13,295 nt of DNA from a virus, in the UHGV virus genome UHGV-0220852. One strand, written 5' to 3'. The notes beneath the pieces are model-generated. The model did no database searches and had not been told where the DNA came from. It worked only from the letters and a program-made list of their open reading frames with translations. This document shows positions 1 through 13,295 of the stretch, piece after piece (positions within the stretch are counted from its first letter, which is position 1; every line of letters begins with the position of its first letter). The translations under genes and the position numbers were made by a program.

Positions 1-875
1 AGGCTGCCGGGGAGATATTCCCCAGACGAGAGTGACGACGCTGACGATTGTAGAAAATCTCAATGTATTCCCGTATTACTGAGATGGCTTCATCCCGGTT
101 ATTAAAACGATAGTGGCTCAGGCTCTCATTTTTCAGCGTTCCCCAGAAGCTTTCCATCGGAGCGTTGTCGTAACAGTTACCTTTACGCGACATTGATGTT
201 TTCAGACCAAACTGCTCCTGTATGACCCGGTAATCGTATGCGCAGTACTGTGAACCTCGATCAGAGTGGTGGATTAGCCCGGCAGGTGGGCGCTGGCTCC
301 TGAGCGCCATAAACAGGGCTTTACCTGTCAGCTCTTTTGTCATGCGCTCTCCCATGGCGTAGCCGACAATTTCGCACGTATAAACATCTTTGATGCCAGC
401 GAGGTACAACCATCCCTCCTGTGTGGCAACATACGTCAGGTCCGCCACCCAGACCTGATTTGGTGCTGTAGGAGCGAACGTCTGGTTCAGCAGATTTGGC
501 GCAACTGGCAGATTGTGGTTCGAGTTCGTAGTCGCTCTGAACTTGCGTTTCTGCTTACAGCGTAGCCTTAGCTCCTTACGAAGACGTGCCAGTCGGTCAC
601 GACCAACGATGATGCCATTCTCTGCCAGCTCCGTCTGGAGCCGCCGGGTTCCATATGTTTCGCGAGTGCGGATATGTGCCACCTTAATCTCCAGTTTTAG
701 CCGCTCATCACTTTGTTTTCTGTCTGAGGGTTCATGCTGTACCCAGTTGTAATAACCGCTCCTGGATACACCAAATACCTGACACATCGCTTCAATGGGA
801 AATTGTTGTCGCCATTGTTCGATTAACGCGTATTTTTCAGCGACTCCTGTGCAAAATACGCTGTTGCTTTTTTTA
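1..875 (-). CDS. IS3-family transposase OrfB (DDE catalytic subunit), truncated by window edge; normally expressed as OrfAB fusion
   Basis: Minus-strand frame open from ~875 to position 1 with recognisable DDE-transposase sequence (translated by hand); absent from the ORF table because it has no in-window start or stop. Confidence 0.75.
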
Positions 876-1125
876 ATATATCTCGCTCAAGGCGAGCTTC
901 ATTTAACGCCTTACGCAGTTGCAGAATTTCAGATTCCAGTTCAGCCACCGTGCGGGAACCAGGAGTACCGAGCCCTTTTCTGGCGGCGGTAACCCATTGT
1001 CCTAAAGTGCCTTCAGGAAGGGATAATCGGGAAGCGCCTTCACTGATCGAAAGTTGATTTTCAAGAACCGTTCTGACAGCTTCGGCTTTGAACTCTTTAG
1101 AGTAACGTTGGGTTTTTCTGCTCAT
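823..1125 (-). CDS. IS3-family transposase OrfA (DNA-binding subunit)
   Basis: 100-aa ORF MSRKTQRYSKEFKAEAVR...ILKKATAYFAQESLKNTR, recognised from memory as IS3/IS600-type OrfA; its 3' end contains the frameshift motif. Confidence 0.85.
   Translation of the reverse strand: MSRKTQRYSKEFKAEAVRTVLENQLSISEGASRLSLPEGTLGQWVTAARKGLGTPGSRTVAELESEILQLRKALNEARLERDILKKATAYFAQESLKNTR
868..875 (-). promoter_or_regulatory. Programmed -1 ribosomal frameshift slippery site (A AAA AAG) for OrfAB
   Basis: T7 run at 869-875 on the + strand gives AAAAAAAG on the coding strand, just before the orfA stop; classic IS3-family arrangement. Confidence 0.6.
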
Positions 1126-1330
1126 TATTAGCTCCTTCTGATGCCATTCTATTTCAGGAAGGAGTGTCCGTTAAACTCAGGCTACCTCAACTGCCAAGAA
1201 CAGGAAGATCGCCGGAGAGCTGCGGACATCTGTATGTTTTGCCATTCGTACAGGAAATTTTGATTATGCTGCGCAGTTCCCTGACTCTCCTAACCTCAAG
1301 GCTTTTGGGGTAAATAAAAAAGAAATTACG

Positions 1331-2395
1331 GTGAAAGAACTTGAAGAAAAATGGCTGGATCTGAAACGAATGGAAATCTCTGCAAATGCATTCAATCGCT
1401 ATGAATCCATTGCAAGGATGATGGTTCCGAAGATTGGTGGCAACCGACTGGTATCAGCAGTGACCAAAGAGGAATTGCTGTATATCAGGAAAGATTTGCT
1501 GACCGGATACCAAAATCCAACAAAAGGTAAAGCTCCAGTAAAAGGACGAAGCGTTGTCACAGTAAATTATTACATGACAACAATCGCTGGAATGTTTCAG
1601 TTTGCTGCAGATCACGGTTACATAGAAGCAAATCCCTTCGAGGGAATTAAGCCTCTTAAAAGAGCCAGGGCAGAACCAGATCCGCTAACTCGTGACGAAT
1701 TTATTCGCCTGATAGATGCTTGCCGGCATCAGCAGACAAAAAACCTGTGGTCATTGGCTGTGTACACAGGAATGCGTCATGGTGAACTGGTCTCCCTGGC
1801 CTGGGAAGATATCGATCTGAAAGCAGGAACAATTACTATCAGGCGCAATTATACGAAACTCGGTGAGTTCACTCTACCTAAAACTGAAGCAAGTACAAAC
1901 AGGGTTGTGCATCTTATCCAGCCCGCTATCAGTGTCCTGAAAAATCAGGCTGAAATGACAAGACTGGGTAAGCAGCACAACATCAAGGTTCAACTACGTG
2001 AATATGGACGTTCAGTAAATCATGAATGTACTTTCGTATTTAACCCCCAGGTGGTTAGAAAAAGCAAACAGGTAGGTTTTATCTACAAGGTAGATTCCAT
2101 TGGCGACTCATGGGAAACAGCCATTAAACGTGCAGGCATCAGGCATCGAAAGGCATACCAGTCACGACACACTTATGCGTGCTGGTCATTATCTGCCGGA
2201 GCAAATCCAAGCTTCATTGCCAGCCAGATGGGGCATGCAAGTGCCCAGATGGTGTTCAATGTATACGGAGCATGGATGACTGACAGCAATGCAGAACAGA
2301 TCGCAATGCTGAATCAGAAGCTGGCAGATTATGTCCCAATGATGTCCCATGGTCACCAAAGTGACACAAGAGACTTATTAAAATCAGTGAGTTAG
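1331..2395 (+). CDS. int: Phage-type tyrosine integrase (site-specific recombinase); probably N-terminally truncated by the IS insertion
   Basis: 354-aa ORF with catalytic-domain motifs (YTGMRHGEL, ...SRHTYACW..., MGHASAQMVFNVYGAW with the tyrosine nucleophile). GTG start; the same frame is open upstream to 1175, reaching the inferred IS terminus, and no N-terminal arm-binding region is recognisable. Confidence 0.8.
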   Translation: MKELEEKWLDLKRMEISANAFNRYESIARMMVPKIGGNRLVSAVTKEELLYIRKDLLTGYQNPTKGKAPVKGRSVVTVNYYMTTIAGMFQFAADHGYIEANPFEGIKPLKRARAEPDPLTRDEFIRLIDACRHQQTKNLWSLAVYTGMRHGELVSLAWEDIDLKAGTITIRRNYTKLGEFTLPKTEASTNRVVHLIQPAISVLKNQAEMTRLGKQHNIKVQLREYGRSVNHECTFVFNPQVVRKSKQVGFIYKVDSIGDSWETAIKRAGIRHRKAYQSRHTYACWSLSAGANPSFIASQMGHASAQMVFNVYGAWMTDSNAEQIAMLNQKLADYVPMMSHGHQSDTRDLLKSVS

Positions 2396-10598: not shown

Positions 10599-11030
10599 TT
10601 AAAATTCCTCCAAAATATACGGGTCAAACTCAAAGTCTGGTTGCTCGTTTTCCATTGGCTCAATATTACCAACGGCCATATGATGCTCAACAACACCAAT
10701 TAACTTTGCGCACATTACAGCAAGCAAAGCGCAATATTTATCGCTTGGTAATTCATGGCTAAGTCTGGTTGCTTGACGCTGAAGATGATTTGTCACGTTG
10801 GCTGCGTTAATTTCATCAAGATTCTTTAGAATATAAAATAGCTTTCTGTTGTATTTTGGGTGACCTTCACTTCTACAGAATCCGATAATTACTTCGTCAA
10901 TGCCTTTGCGTTCTGCTCTGGTGAACTTGGGTACTTCGTGGCTGGTGGGGGTGTCTGTGTAAGCGTAGGAGTTGTATCTGTTACGTTGTCTCGATGCCTG
11001 AAGCATCGCTCTAAATTCTCTGTCGTTCAT
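10599..11030 (-). CDS. Hypothetical protein (143 aa), first gene of the leftward coupled operon
   Basis: ORF directly downstream of the leftward promoter; acidic C-terminus; no recognisable motif. Confidence 0.6.
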   Translation of the reverse strand: MNDREFRAMLQASRQRNRYNSYAYTDTPTSHEVPKFTRAERKGIDEVIIGFCRSEGHPKYNRKLFYILKNLDEINAANVTNHLQRQATRLSHELPSDKYCALLAVMCAKLIGVVEHHMAVGNIEPMENEQPDFEFDPYILEEF

Positions 11031-11114: not shown

Positions 11115-11144
11115 TTAACATTTTATTAACATCTATGGTATAAT
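11115..11144 (+). promoter_or_regulatory. Sigma70-type promoter reading rightward with extended -10 (TTAACA-18-TGgTATAAT)
   Basis: -35 at 11115-11120, TG at 11136-11137, TATAAT at 11139-11144; sits back-to-back with the leftward promoter, -35 elements 6 bp apart. Confidence 0.55.
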
Positions 11145-11326: not shown

Positions 11327-11515
11327 ATGGTAAATCTCCCTCCTGAACTGGGGTCACCTGATGTATGGGCTGGTGGAGGTGTTGGGCTGATTGCAGGCTT
11401 ACTACTTCGCTATTTCATCGTCAGGGTGTTTATCGTGTTTCGGTTGTTTGGTCGTGAATGGTCGTTTGACCTCAAGGACAGGACCAGAACAGACAACCAC
11501 ACAGAACCCCGTTAA
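11327..11515 (+). CDS. Candidate small single-pass membrane protein (62 aa)
   Basis: ATG with AAGGA RBS 6 nt upstream; MVNLPPELGSPDVWAGGGVGLIAGLLLRYFIVRVFIVFRLFGREWSFDLKDRTRTDNHTEPR has one hydrophobic helix and a charged tail. The ORF table's 112-aa version starts inside element B and is probably over-extended. Confidence 0.45.
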   Translation: MVNLPPELGSPDVWAGGGVGLIAGLLLRYFIVRVFIVFRLFGREWSFDLKDRTRTDNHTEPR

Positions 11516-11629
11516 ACTCCCTTCAAAACCCCCTGTACGTGATGGTATAGGGGTATCTTTAGCATTTTGTGCTATCTATTAAAAAATAGCTTGACAGAAC
11601 CGGAAAGCTGTATCTATCAAGCATTCACC

Positions 11630-11806
11630 TCTCTGACAGTAACCTCTAAAAGTTCTTATTTTTCAATAAATTGTAATTAGCCATATATAGAGAACTGACA
11701 AGTCTCTTCACAATTAACTCTGTAACCTTAACAGTGATTTCTAAAAATACTTATTTTTCAATAAGTTGTAATTAGCCAATATAAAGGACTGACAAGACCC
11801 TCCACA
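11630..11806. repeat. Tandem direct repeat, two copies, ~95-bp period
   Basis: Copy 1 ~11630-11711 and copy 2 ~11725-11806 share a near-identical core CTTATTTTTCAATAA[A/G]TTGTAATTAGCCA and ACTGACAAG; no ORF. Confidence 0.7.
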
Positions 11807-11835
11807 GAGAACTTCCTGGACTCACTAAGATACAA

Positions 11836-11861
11836 GGCGATAACCCCAGAAAGGGAGAGCC
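11836..11861. repeat. Two-tier GC hairpin, copy 1 of a hairpin repeat (copy 2 at 12049-12082); possible terminator
   Basis: GGC-gataa-CCC-cagaaa-GGG-aga-GCC; shares the core TAACCCCAGA[A/C]AGGG with copy 2, while the outer stem differs in sequence but still pairs. Confidence 0.3.
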
Positions 11862-12048
11862 ACCTTCTAATTGGTATTGTTATGAGGATGCTTCATCCGA
11901 ATCATCTACCAATCCCTAAACCGACTTCTTAAACAATCTTTACAGACCCCGTTCACCAGTCTCAATATTTTATTTCTCGCTCTTCGTTTGTTGCTCGTTT
12001 CTATTATTGAGGGGGTTTGAAAAACCTCTGTAAAATAACCCTTCCAGT

Positions 12049-12082
12049 AAAAAGCGAATAACCCCAGACAGGGGAAATCGCC
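12049..12082 (-). terminator. Candidate intrinsic terminator downstream of the methyltransferase gene
   Basis: On the minus strand: GCGA/TCGC outer stem, CCCC/GGGG inner stem, then TTTTT (A5 at 12049-12053 on +); lies 40 nt after the methyltransferase stop. Confidence 0.45.
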
Positions 12083-12121
12083 TCTTTAACATTCTCATAA
12101 TCAGTACTCTATATGAGAATC

Positions 12122-12790
12122 TTAGCCCAACCTTTGAACAATCCTGTAAGTGGTGCTTAGAGGCATTCTTAGCGATTCTGCGATGCTCTTGATGGATTGC
12201 CCTTGGTCATACATTTTAATCAACCTGTCAAGCGTCTGTGCATCGTGTATATGAGGTCTTCCACGTAAACCACCCCTGTTAACCACGGCAAGTAAAAGCA
12301 TTGTGTCACCACAATAGATTGTCTGGGTAACTTCAACTTTCGGTTTGCGGGGTGTGTTCCTGTATATCAAAACGCAACTTGGAAACGGTGAACGCGCTGC
12401 AACACCTTTCTTCCCTGCTGGTGGAAGGTATTTGACTGCTCGGTGTAACGTTCGAATCTCATGCAGAAAGGGGTTTGTATATACACATCGAAGCCAGTAA
12501 GTTGTCTTTGACCTGTGCGGAACCAGACATACACACACATCAGCTTCAGGGGCTTTTGAGAGGAACCGTTCAGCCATGCTAAACGGCGGGTTACAGAAGA
12601 CCCGTTCACCAACCCATGATTGACGGCTTATATCATCGGTGAACCGTGGCAACAATGCGTCATGCTCAGTTGCAGCACCATCCATTGAGAAACTAAATTC
12701 TCGGTGTAGGTTACGAAATAAACGATACGGTGTACGCCAGTCATCAGAACCACCATGATAACGACCGACATTGATTATTGGATGTGACAC
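12122..12790 (-). CDS. Phage-type DNA N6-adenine methyltransferase (Dam family) with C-terminal resolvase-type HTH extension
   Basis: 222-aa ORF (GTG start): ...SDDWRTPYRLF...MDGAATEHDA...WVGERVFCNPPFS...VCLVPHRSKTTYW... matches the small phage Dam family; the last ~50 residues GRPHIHDAQTLDRLIKMYDQGQSIKSIAESLRMPLSTTYRIV resemble the HTH of Hin/resolvase-type recombinases. Confidence 0.8.
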   Translation of the reverse strand: MSHPIINVGRYHGGSDDWRTPYRLFRNLHREFSFSMDGAATEHDALLPRFTDDISRQSWVGERVFCNPPFSMAERFLSKAPEADVCVCLVPHRSKTTYWLRCVYTNPFLHEIRTLHRAVKYLPPAGKKGVAARSPFPSCVLIYRNTPRKPKVEVTQTIYCGDTMLLLAVVNRGGLRGRPHIHDAQTLDRLIKMYDQGQSIKSIAESLRMPLSTTYRIVQRLG

Positions 12791-13295
12791 AAGCGAAGCG
12801 CCCTCTTAGTATATTTCTTAATCATCTCTTTAGCATTTAGTGCTTTTTGTTAAGTTTAGCACTTTTTGCTAAAGACAAAACACTTGACAAAATGGTAAGA
12901 TTGTTCACATAGCCCTTACTTAACAGACTTTTAAGAGACTTTGAAACGACCTACTTAACAAGGTCACTACCTCTGGTCTTATCACTCCCTCTTGGTAGTT
13001 CTGTTAATAATTTTTCAGTTCTCTCTTAAGACAACTGTTAAGACAGAACCTACCTTCGGTTTTCATGGTTCTCTTCCCCCGTTAAACAGTCCTTCCTAGC
13101 AACTTCATAGTTATCTGTCAAGTGCCTTTGAAGATTCTATCAAGACCTCTGAAGCTGACCTGATATAGATGCTGTGAAGGCATATTCTCTAGGTCTGTGT
13201 AGCTTACTTAGTGGGAAGAGAGGGATATAGTGACCATAGGGGAACCCCTCCTGTTAAAAAGACTACTTAGAAGTCTGAGACTTTAGTAAAATCTG

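What the first reader, a model, noticed from the sequence alone, without database searches (positions are those of the whole stretch)
11516..12121. 600-bp ORF-free region with tandem ~95-bp repeats and covarying hairpin repeats: candidate sRNA locus, origin or regulator-binding array
Between the small membrane-protein ORF and the methyltransferase gene there is no credible coding sequence. Instead there is a promoter-like TTGACA-18-TATCAA (11591-11620), a two-copy tandem repeat with a near-identical 30-bp core (11630-11806), and two related two-tier hairpins (11836-11861; 12054-12081) that share a core but pair through different outer-stem sequences. A nested inverted repeat TTGGTA...GGATG-ctt-CATCC...TACCAA lies at 11871-11912. 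The second hairpin looks like the terminator of the methyltransferase gene; the rest is unexplained. The density of structure suggests small RNAs, iteron-like replication or partition sites, or a regulatory array.
Basis: seen in the sequence. Interest (0 to 1): 0.55.

Follow-up and report, generated by a model that had tools for sequence, protein, structure and literature searches.

The report
Phage-like non-coding arm of island
The 600-bp gene-free stretch is real and is the start of a long non-coding arm of a small mobile island of E. coli that copies both genes and non-coding DNA of Felix-O1-type lytic phages, which suggests an undescribed phage parasite, though this is not proven.

Summary
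The region is not an isolated intergenic locus. It is the proximal part of a 2.5-3 kb non-coding arm of an ~11.5-kb island that integrates with a large serine recombinase (hits in 424 of 5426 complete E. coli genomes; also E. albertii and Citrobacter). The island encodes homologues of Felix O1 tape-measure protein (30% identity) and of the phage gene next to it (68-73%). Its arm shares sequence blocks, a dense CTGTNAAG box array, a two-tier hairpin and a mini-palindrome (51/51 identical) with the conserved 1.5-kb ORF-free region of Ounavirinae phages. The two hairpins belong to a family with seven different, perfectly complementary outer stems. They read best as leftward terminators; hairpin 2 ends the methyltransferase gene. 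The 95-bp repeat is island-specific, AT-rich, present in one or two copies, and made of conserved boxes, with a shorter copy near the island's right end. The 'TTGACA promoter' is probably one of these boxes. There is no Rfam match, no conserved ORF and no convincing sigma-70 promoter. Best reading: a terminator-insulated, protein-binding cis-acting DNA region, possibly for helper-dependent replication or packaging, rather than an sRNA gene. Function is untested.

The parts
11327..11515 (+). Context: 62-aa small membrane-protein gene, read from a TTAACA-18-TATAAT promoter at 11115-11144
   Evidence: The exact protein sequence is present in 944 blocks of the assembly collection.
11530..11560 (+). 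Intrinsic terminator of the small ORF (CCCCTGTACGTGATGGTATAGGGG + TATCTTT). In L004 it is present in flipped form.
11560..11574 (.). Palindrome TAGCA-N5-TGCTA. Related copies lie at 12829-12869, upstream of the methyltransferase start. Candidate operator.
   Evidence: Read directly from the sequence. Conserved in most islands. Binding has not been tested.
11590..11597 (+). It is better read as one of the CTTNACAG boxes (reverse complement CTGTNAAG).
11625..11728 (+). 95-bp unit, copy 1. GC is 25-32%. Boxes: CTGACAG, A/T tract, TTTCAATAAATTG, TTGTAAT, ATATA, ACTGACAAG, CTTCACAA.
11719..11823 (+). 95-bp unit, copy 2. This is the copy kept in single-copy islands. Together with hairpin 1 it is 90-92% identical even in Citrobacter.
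11756..11767 (+). Box TTTCAATRAGTT (also at 11661-11672 with one change). It resembles an IHF site. A further copy lies about 170 bp from the right end of every island.
11836..11861 (-). Two-tier hairpin H1, homologous to the hairpin at the left edge of the phage ORF-free region. Terminator-like on the - strand (tail TTGTATCTT).
11871..11916 (.). Mini-palindrome, long form: the 20-nt element TTGGTATTGTTACCAATCCC with a 26-nt hairpin (11883-11908) inserted in its loop. It is present or absent depending on the island, and window 11868-11918 is 51/51 identical to phage NBEco004.
11919..12053 (.). Spacer 'F', with a small hairpin at 12009-12028 (loop TTTGAAA). It is missing, together with the palindrome, in islands that carry a hybrid H1/H2 hairpin.
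12047..12081 (-). Two-tier hairpin H2 plus T-run (TTTTTAC on the - strand): the intrinsic terminator of the methyltransferase gene.
12087..12124 (-). Inverted repeat overlapping the methyltransferase stop codon. It forms the first of two tandem 3' hairpins.
12122..12790 (-). Dam-type N6-adenine methyltransferase with a C-terminal HTH. It is an optional cassette, absent from L004, L005, L008, L011 and L012.
12893..13008 (-). Block of the distal arm that is homologous to the Ounavirinae ORF-free region. The window ends inside the arm.
   Evidence: nhmmer E = 6e-6 in the window, down to 5e-17 in other islands. blastn match.

Best explanation
The 600 bp are the proximal part of a phage-like, non-coding, cis-acting DNA arm of a Felix-O1-related integrative island. 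In this island variant a methyltransferase cassette splits the arm.

Shown:
(1) The island family is about 11.5 kb. Its gene order is large serine recombinase, gp68-like, tape-measure protein, about eight small unknown genes, a divergent promoter, a 62-aa membrane protein, then a non-coding arm. It sits at three or more chromosomal sites.
(2) The arm and the conserved 1.5-kb ORF-free region of Ounavirinae phages share sequence blocks, a 30-60-fold enriched CTGTNAAG box, a two-tier hairpin and a 20/46-nt mini-palindrome.
(3) The two-tier hairpins are structure-selected and are the more stable on the - strand. One of them ends the methyltransferase gene.
(4) The 95-bp unit is island-specific, AT-rich and present in one or two copies. 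It is made of conserved boxes (CTTNACAG, TTTCAATRAGTT, ACTGACAAG), and these recur near the island's right end.

Inferred:
The hairpins act as leftward terminators or insulators. Together with the rightward terminator at 11530-11553, they keep the unit array free of read-through transcription. The units are binding platforms for a sequence-specific protein, island- or phage-encoded, together with an IHF-like bending protein. They would nucleate a DNA transaction such as replication initiation or packaging recognition when a Felix-O1-like phage infects. The mini-palindrome and the hairpins also serve as recombination points that shuffle cassettes between islands and phages.
For: Island family and integration sites. 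TMP is 29-30% identical over its full length to Ounavirinae TMPs only. The Dit-like protein is 68-73% identical to the Felixounavirus gene next to the TMP gene (gp67/gp68 in the Felix O1 paper).

Shared non-coding DNA: a 51/51 match; the same order hairpin-TTCTAA-palindrome in phage pEC-M719-6WT.1; and an nhmmer profile of the phage ORF-free region that hits island arms at E = 6e-6 to 5e-17. The ORF-free region is conserved at about 80% in 257 phage records and is bracketed by annotated terminators. It has no promoter excess.

CTGTNAAG density is 3.3-7.5 per kb inside the arms and the phage ORF-free region, against 0-0.8 per kb outside.

Hairpins: seven outer-stem classes are each perfectly complementary, while cross-class pairing reaches at most 2 bp. 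The - strand is the more stable in 8 of 11 variants. The H2 fold has z = -3.9 and is followed by TTTTTAC.

Units: found only in these islands, in 349 genomes. Eight of 24 loci have one copy and 16 have two. GC is 25-32%. The 12-mer TTTCAATRAGTT occurs 3 times in L001 against 0.02 expected, including a copy near the right end.

Hybrid H1/H2 hairpins with loss of the intervening 220 bp occur in L033, L034 and L038.
Against: No binding protein has been identified, and no replication initiator or terminase was recognised among the island's proteins. The function of the phage ORF-free region is itself unknown; I could not locate the phage genome ends or origin. The IHF-like match is not statistically enriched in the window (24 found against 22 expected with one mismatch). 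No excised circular form with the predicted attP was found in IMG/VR or JGI metagenome contigs. H1 has only a weak T-tail, and the H1b variants have none. The nearly invariant 75 nt between the unit core and H1 would also fit an RNA product.
Confidence: 0.5

Rival explanations
1. Small or antisense RNA locus. Each 95-bp unit is a promoter (A/T-rich UP-like tract, TTCAAT, 17 nt, TATAAA), or the TTGACA-18-TATCAA site is the promoter. It drives a rightward non-coding RNA that begins with hairpin 1 and the palindrome and runs antisense into the methyltransferase gene or the arm, acting by base-pairing or transcriptional interference.
For: Promoter-like matches lie in both units (9 of 12). The 75 nt from ACTGACAAG to the end of H1 are almost invariant across E. 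coli and Citrobacter islands. L011 has a perfect TATAAT at the -10 position. The hairpins covary, as expected for RNA.
Against: The -10-like element lacks the final T in most alleles. The right-end copy of the unit keeps the boxes but not the TATA element. On the + strand neither hairpin has a U-tail. Folding energies of the candidate RNAs are ordinary (z = +0.8 to -0.9). There is no Rfam match. G.U pairs favour the - strand. In the divergent islands TATCAA is TTTCAG.
Confidence: 0.2
2. Passive mosaic of mobile regulatory cassettes. The region would be an accretion of terminator hairpins, a mini-palindrome and a duplicated spacer at a convergent gene junction. It would matter only as terminators and as recombination hot-spots for swapping cassettes, as with the PeSL cassettes of T4-type phages. 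The 95-bp unit would have no dedicated function.
For: There is extensive presence/absence variation of the palindrome, the F spacer, the second unit and the methyltransferase cassette. H1 and H2 form hybrids. CTTCTTAA-type short direct repeats flank the hairpin cassettes. The palindrome sits at six or more sites in phages and five or more in islands.
Against: At least one unit plus one hairpin is kept in all 24 islands that retain this part. Together with H1, the unit that single-copy islands keep is among the best-conserved stretches between window and Citrobacter (90% vs 67-85% for other aligned segments). Its boxes recur in conserved form at the island's right end.
Confidence: 0.2
3. Recombination sites. 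The directly repeated units, at the left of the arm and near its right end, would be res-like sites for the small serine recombinases encoded in many arms, which would excise or rearrange the arm.
For: Resolvase-type genes of 182-191 aa lie in the arm of several islands. The unit-like copies are in direct orientation. The methyltransferase carries a resolvase-type HTH.
Against: Many islands, including this window as far as it reaches and L001, have the units but no small recombinase. No arm-less deletion products were seen among 24 loci.
Confidence: 0.05

Closest known systems
Phage satellites of virulent phages (PLE of Vibrio cholerae with ICP1); also P4 and PICI (from my own knowledge of the field)
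   Same: A small integrative island with its own recombinase and only a few virion-related genes. Those genes are homologous to one phage group, and the island carries non-coding DNA closely matching that phage. It is widespread in the phage's host species.
   Different: It carries a large serine recombinase together with tape-measure and gp68-like tail genes. No recognisable replication, capsid-remodelling or terminase-redirecting genes were found. The candidate helper would be a Felix-O1-like myovirus, for which I found no satellite described. Induction, replication and packaging are untested.
P4 ori/crr, and iteron origins of PICIs and plasmids (own knowledge)
   Same: Two direct repeats of about 100 bp carrying short repeated boxes. 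An AT-rich core. A second related copy kilobases away. Variable copy number.
   Different: No initiator gene was identified. The boxes are 8-mers in irregular spacing, not 17-22-bp iterons. There is no DnaA box.
Lambda cosB-type packaging sites (terminase small-subunit R sites plus an IHF site) (own knowledge)
   Same: Short repeated boxes combined with an IHF-like site and an A/T tract, in DNA that is related to a phage's own non-coding region.
   Different: The units themselves have no counterpart in the phage. The phage's packaging site is unknown. IHF binding is inferred from a consensus match only.
PeSL mobile regulatory cassettes of T4-type phages (Arbiol, Comeau and Krisch 2010; recalled, not re-read here)
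   Same: Short stem-loop or promoter-like cassettes at the borders of optional genes, shared between genomes, and acting as recombination points. Examples here are the H1/H2 hybrids and the presence or absence of the methyltransferase cassette.
   Different: No convincing early promoter is attached. The hairpins have a specific two-tier shape with a conserved (G)ATAA bulge.
Rho-independent terminators
   Same: H2, and the phage copies of the hairpin, have a G+C stem-loop followed by a T-run on the - strand.
   Different: The design is two-tier, with conserved internal loops that are kept while the outer stem changes. The H1 variants have poor or no T-run.

Membership tests
Intrinsic (Rho-independent) terminator | Stable G+C-rich stem-loop in the RNA | tested here: met
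   All 11 variants fold into the two-tier hairpin, at -6 to -15 kcal/mol. The 3' end of the methyltransferase gene folds with z = -3.9.
Intrinsic (Rho-independent) terminator | U-tract directly after the stem, downstream of a gene on the same strand | tested here: inconclusive
   Met for H2 (TTTTTAC on the - strand, 41 nt after the methyltransferase stop) and for the phage copies (TTATATTTAA). Weak for H1a (TTGTATCTT). Absent for H1b/c (TTCTCCCGC).
Bacterial sRNA gene | Promoter and terminator in the same orientation flanking a conserved, structured RNA | tested here: not met
   Only 9-of-12 promoter-like matches. The -10 lacks the last T. There are no + strand U-tails. Folding z-scores are ordinary.
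Bacterial sRNA gene | Match to a described RNA family | tested here: not met
   No Rfam match at gathering score; the best E-value is 2.9.
Bacterial sRNA gene | A discrete transcript | not testable with these tools
   No expression data are available.
Iteron-type replication origin (P4 ori/crr, PICI or plasmid ori) | Array of directly repeated initiator-binding sites | tested here: inconclusive
   Five or six co-oriented CTTNACAG-like boxes lie in 11590-11807, with one or two 95-bp units, but the spacing is irregular.
Iteron-type replication origin (P4 ori/crr, PICI or plasmid ori) | AT-rich unwinding region | tested here: met
   GC is 25-32% over 11630-11780, against 43-53% in the flanks.
Iteron-type replication origin (P4 ori/crr, PICI or plasmid ori) | Cognate initiator gene in the element | tested here: not met
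   No Rep, primase or helicase domain was found in the island's proteins. Only the L009 variant has an HTH_36 protein.
Iteron-type replication origin (P4 ori/crr, PICI or plasmid ori) | Supports autonomous or helper-dependent replication | not testable with these tools
   This needs an experiment.
Phage satellite | Own integrase and site-specific integration at more than one site | tested here: met
   Large serine recombinase. An 11-bp core TCAAGGGTCAT flanks the island in the 5' end of tonB. Other copies sit in yecE and next to wrbA.
Phage satellite | Incomplete virion gene set, related to one helper group | tested here: met
   Only the TMP (30% identity) and the gp68-like protein (68-73%) are phage-related, and both match Ounavirinae only.
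Phage satellite | Cis-acting site matching the helper's packaging or replication signal | tested here: inconclusive
   Non-coding blocks, boxes, the hairpin and the palindrome are shared with the phage ORF-free region, but the function of that region is unknown.
Phage satellite | Helper-induced excision, replication and packaging | not testable with these tools
   The predicted attP junction was not found in IMG/VR or JGI metagenome contigs. The IMG/VR hits are provirus calls in bacterial genomes.
PeSL-type mobile regulatory cassette | Repeated stem-loop cassettes at borders of optional genes that mediate modular exchange | tested here: met
   H1/H2 hybrid with deletion of the intervening DNA. 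The methyltransferase cassette and the palindrome are present or absent depending on the island. The same elements occur in phages.
PeSL-type mobile regulatory cassette | Early promoter joined to the stem-loop | tested here: not met
   No conserved sigma-70 promoter lies next to the hairpins.

The most novel reading that the evidence does not exclude
The island would be the first satellite, or satellite-like parasite, of Felix-O1-type virulent myoviruses. Its non-coding arm, including this 600-bp stretch, would carry the cis signals by which the island senses the helper and is replicated or packaged by it. The 95-bp units would be the island-specific loading site, and the hairpin and palindrome would be helper-derived modules kept identical by recombination during co-infection. 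The phage's own enigmatic 1.5-kb ORF-free region would then be identified as the corresponding cis-acting centre of Ounavirinae genomes.
Probability: 0.3. Interest if true: 0.85.

Novelty: new variant of a known kind. Interest (0 to 1): 0.6.

Why it matters
Felix-O1-like phages are classic Salmonella and E. coli typing and biocontrol phages, and I found no satellite or dedicated parasitic island reported for them. An island present in roughly 8% of complete E. coli genomes could affect phage therapy outcomes and gene transfer if it does exploit these phages. The evidence here is that it carries diverged copies of two of their tail genes and shares non-coding modules with them, one at 100% identity. 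The shared modules also point to the function of a 1.5-kb ORF-free region that is conserved in more than 250 phage genomes and has never been explained. The region itself offers concrete, testable cis elements: the boxes, the two-tier hairpin and a 20/46-nt mobile palindrome.

Tried and rejected
- Rfam at gathering and E-value thresholds on the window, islands and phage loci: nothing relevant.
- tRNA/tmRNA scan: none.
- Tandem Repeats Finder: misses the two-copy repeat.
- Plasmid collection: no match.
- Small ORFs, including peptides in the palindrome: not conserved.
- Sigma-70 promoter reading of TTGACA-18-TATCAA and of the units: weak.
- IHF consensus: the window has only 1-mismatch matches, and their number is no higher than chance; perfect matches are seen only in L008 and L012.
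- Tus/Ter and P4-iteron resemblances seen by eye: rejected, because conserved positions are wrong or the match is a single 8-mer.
- Thermodynamic test of hairpin 1 and the palindrome: ordinary.
- MAFFT alignment of the hairpins was out of register, so covariation was counted by script instead.
- Inferring phage genome ends from locus boundaries: abandoned once list_loci showed that the boundaries are storage chunks, not contig ends.
- Search for the excised attP junction: negative.
- Profile search for the 95-bp unit in phages: none.
- Literature searches for a Felix O1 satellite or for the function of the ORF-free region: nothing relevant.
- Homologues of the 184-aa protein are all close relatives without annotation, so structure prediction was not pursued.

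Full report
**1. Observation**

All the described features are in the sequence at the stated coordinates.
- TTGACA is at 11591-11596, followed by 18 nt and TATCAA at 11615-11620.
- A two-copy direct repeat has a period of 94-95 nt: 11636-11683 vs 11731-11778 at 88% identity, and 11685-11719 vs 11779-11813 at 77%.
- Hairpin 1 is at 11836-11861, hairpin 2 at 12054-12081, and the nested inverted repeat at 11871-11912.

Tandem Repeats Finder does not report the repeat, which is expected for two diverged copies. No ORF of 20 aa or more is credible. The only 42-aa ORF overlaps hairpin 2 and loses its ATG in related islands. There are no tRNA genes and no Rfam matches.

**2. Where the window comes from**

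The region has no plasmid match. It matches 424 of 5426 complete E. coli chromosomes.

Annotated relatives share one conserved element of about 11.5 kb. Its gene order is:
- a large serine recombinase;
- a Dit-like 'baseplate' protein;
- a tape-measure protein (TMP);
- about eight small genes of unknown function, one of them an HNH endonuclease;
- a divergent promoter region;
- a 62-aa membrane protein;
- a long stretch with few or no genes, which I call the arm, reaching to the right junction.

The element sits at three or more sites: inside yecE, in the 5' end of tonB, and next to wrbA.
- At the tonB site an 11-bp core, TCAAGGGTCAT, flanks the island.
- There the island-side arms have the dyad symmetry (CCGAATAG/CTATTCGG) expected of a serine-integrase attP.

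Relatives occur in E. albertii and Citrobacter. Homologues of its 184-aa protein are also found in Salmonella, Shigella and E. fergusonii.

**3. Link to Felix-O1-like phages: proteins**

The TMP's only full-length relatives in 50,697 phage records are the TMPs of Ounavirinae, at 29-30% identity. The Dit-like protein is 68-73% identical to the Felixounavirus gene immediately downstream of the TMP gene. All 299 hits are Ounavirinae. In Felix O1 these are gp67 and the virion protein gp68. The other island proteins have no phage homologues and no informative domains.

**4. Link to Felix-O1-like phages: non-coding DNA**

Window 11868-11918 is 51/51 identical to Felixounavirus NBEco004 and 94% identical to EC106. 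In the phages this sequence lies in an ORF-free region of about 1.5 kb.
- The region sits at a convergent gene junction (Felix O1 12405-13891).
- It is conserved at about 80% in 257 records and never annotated.
- In Citrobacter phage Maleficent it is bracketed by two inward-facing annotated terminators.
- It shows no excess of promoter-like sites.

Phage pEC-M719-6WT.1 has the same local order as the window: two-tier hairpin, TTCTAA, palindrome, CCCT(T)AAAC.

An nhmmer profile of the phage region finds significant matches in the island arms. These include window 12893-13008 (E = 6e-6), two blocks in L001, L009 (1e-12) and the Citrobacter island (5e-17).

The octamer CTGTNAAG occurs at 3.3-7.5 per kb in the phage ORF-free region and in the island arms. 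Outside them it occurs at 0-0.8 per kb.

The finding's 600 bp are therefore the proximal part of a phage-like non-coding arm. In this island variant a Dam-HTH methyltransferase cassette (roughly 11936-12870) splits the arm. That cassette is absent from L004, L005, L008, L011 and L012.

**5. The hairpins**

A scan of all loci found 11 distinct sequences of the same two-tier design. Each has an outer stem, a (G)ATAA bulge, an inner stem CCC(C)/GGG(G), a 3-6 nt loop and an A-rich 3' bulge. All fold that way.

The outer stems fall into seven classes:
- GGC/GCC
- GAGC/GCTC
- GCGA/TCGC
- GATAC/GTATC
- GCCC/GGGC
- GCC/GGC
- GCCA/TGGC

Each class is perfectly complementary, whereas arms taken from different classes pair over at most 2 bp. 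This is strong covariation.

The - strand version is the more stable in 8 of 11 variants because of G.U pairs. On that strand H2 and the phage copies are followed by T-runs (TTTTTAC, TTATATTTAA). H2 lies 41 nt after the methyltransferase stop, and with the preceding inverted repeat (12087-12124) it gives a fold with z = -3.9. I therefore read H2 as the methyltransferase terminator.

H1 is the homologue of the phage hairpin. I read it as a leftward terminator or insulator, although its tail (TTGTATCTT) is weak and the H1b variants have none.

H1 and H2 can recombine. L033, L034 and L038 carry a single hybrid hairpin and lack the 220 bp in between.

**6. The nested inverted repeat**

This is a tiny multi-copy element.
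- The 20-nt form is TTGG(TA/GC)TTGT(T)(A)CCAA(T/C)CCC.
- The 46-nt form has a 26-nt hairpin, flanked by TA, inserted in its loop.
- Both forms occur at six or more different sites in the phage ORF-free region and five or more sites in islands. One of the island sites is next to the right junction.

At the window's site the element is long in six islands, short in one and absent in the rest; the empty site reads CTTCTTAACCGAC. One base pair of the stem covaries between the two sequence types (A:T in one, G:C in the other). Its function is unknown. Its identity with phage copies argues for recent exchange between island and phage.

**7. The 95-bp repeat**

It is element-specific, not a genome-wide repeat. 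It occurs in 349 genomes at the island locus only, and a profile finds no copy in phages. Of 24 islands compared, 16 have two copies and 8 have one.

The unit is AT-rich, with GC of 25-32%. Its conserved blocks are CTTATTTTTCAAT.AGTTGTAAT, ATATA, ACTGACAAG and CTTCACAG. Copy 2 plus H1 is 90-92% identical between E. coli and Citrobacter, where the flanks are 66-75% identical.

A shorter version keeps CTTCACAG, TTTCAATAAGTT and AAAGGGACTG. It lies in the same orientation about 170 bp from the right end of every island. In L001 the 12-mer occurs 3 times against 0.02 expected.

TTTCAATRAGTT is one mismatch from the IHF consensus, and the L008 and L012 versions are perfect. However, the consensus is too loose to be significant in the window.

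Its '-10' lacks the final T and is TTTCAG in divergent islands.

**8. Interpretation**

Shown:
- the island-phage relationship;
- shared non-coding modules;
- structure-selected hairpins;
- a terminator for the methyltransferase gene;
- an island-specific, box-built, AT-rich unit of variable copy number, insulated between a rightward terminator (11530-11553) and leftward hairpins.

Inferred: the units are protein-binding platforms used for a DNA transaction during infection by a Felix-O1-like phage, such as replication initiation or packaging recognition. The hairpins keep transcription out.

This reading rests on analogy with P4 ori/crr, lambda cosB and satellite origins (my own knowledge). 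No binding protein, initiator or terminase has been identified, and the function of the phage region is unknown.

The main rival is an sRNA or antisense RNA made from promoters inside the units. It is weakened by the poor -10 elements, the lack of + strand terminators, ordinary folding energies and the promoter-less right-end copy, but it is not excluded. A purely passive 'cassette mosaic' reading explains the variability, but not the strict retention of one unit plus one hairpin.

**9. Novelty and limits**

I found no paper in the held library describing a satellite of Felix-O1-like phages or the function of their ORF-free region.

The satellite reading is circumstantial.
- The predicted attP junction was not found in IMG/VR or JGI metagenome contigs.
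- The IMG/VR hits are provirus calls in bacterial genomes.

A decayed-prophage origin cannot be excluded. It is hard to reconcile with the constant compact gene order at several integration sites and in several genera.

Noticed in passing
L001 15895-16110 (island right arm, just beyond the window's right end): TTGACG-17-TATAAT is followed by about 170 nt of G-rich sequence with GGTAAGGT-like repeats and a hairpin gggactctttcgggagtcc + TTTTT. This looks like a stand-alone sRNA gene.
   Followed up: no
L033, L034, L038 (p62-Dam interval of about 310 bp): A single hybrid hairpin, GAGCGATAACCCCAGA(C/G)AGGGAAATCGCC, joins the 5' half of H1b to the 3' half of H2. The palindrome and the F spacer are deleted, so the two hairpins act as recombination partners.
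   Followed up: partly
L001 5698-5708 and 17023-17033; the same in L035, L036, L039, L040: The island is flanked by the 11-bp core TCAAGGGTCAT in the first codons of tonB. The island-side arms are symmetric (CCGAATAG ... CTATTCGG), giving a predicted attP. Other copies sit in yecE and beside wrbA, the latter with a 547-aa recombinase variant.
   Followed up: partly
window 11530-11553 vs L004 12014-12037: The terminator hairpin of the small ORF is present in L004 as its exact reverse complement (flipped loop).
   Followed up: no
window 10599-11030: The first gene of the leftward operon is 143 aa here, against 184 aa in most islands. This is an in-frame 123-bp deletion, and the same allele is found in one Logan and one ENA contig.
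   Followed up: partly
window 11560-11574 and 12829-12869: TAGCA-N5-TGCTA palindromes lie upstream of both CTTGACA sites. Two of them are in the methyltransferase promoter region. They are a candidate operator for an HTH protein.
   Followed up: no
window 823-2395: An IS3-type transposase fragment (HTH_Tnp_1) and a tyrosine integrase lie immediately left of the island's serine recombinase. This island copy therefore sits next to another mobile element, and its integration site differs from those analysed.
   Followed up: no
L004 13153-13677; L033 11895-12419: Some arms carry an HNH-AP2 homing-endonuclease gene, and others a 182-191-aa resolvase-type recombinase, in either orientation. The arm is a landing pad for optional cassettes.
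   Followed up: no
L003 2866-4600, L014 3916-5486 (phage ORF-free region): Besides CTGTTAAG, the phage region is full of CTTGTTAG and CTATAAAG/CTCTATAG motifs, mostly in one orientation. A patch GATAAGACCAGAGRTAGTGACCWTGTTAA is shared with island arms in inverted orientation (window 12950-12990).
   Followed up: partly
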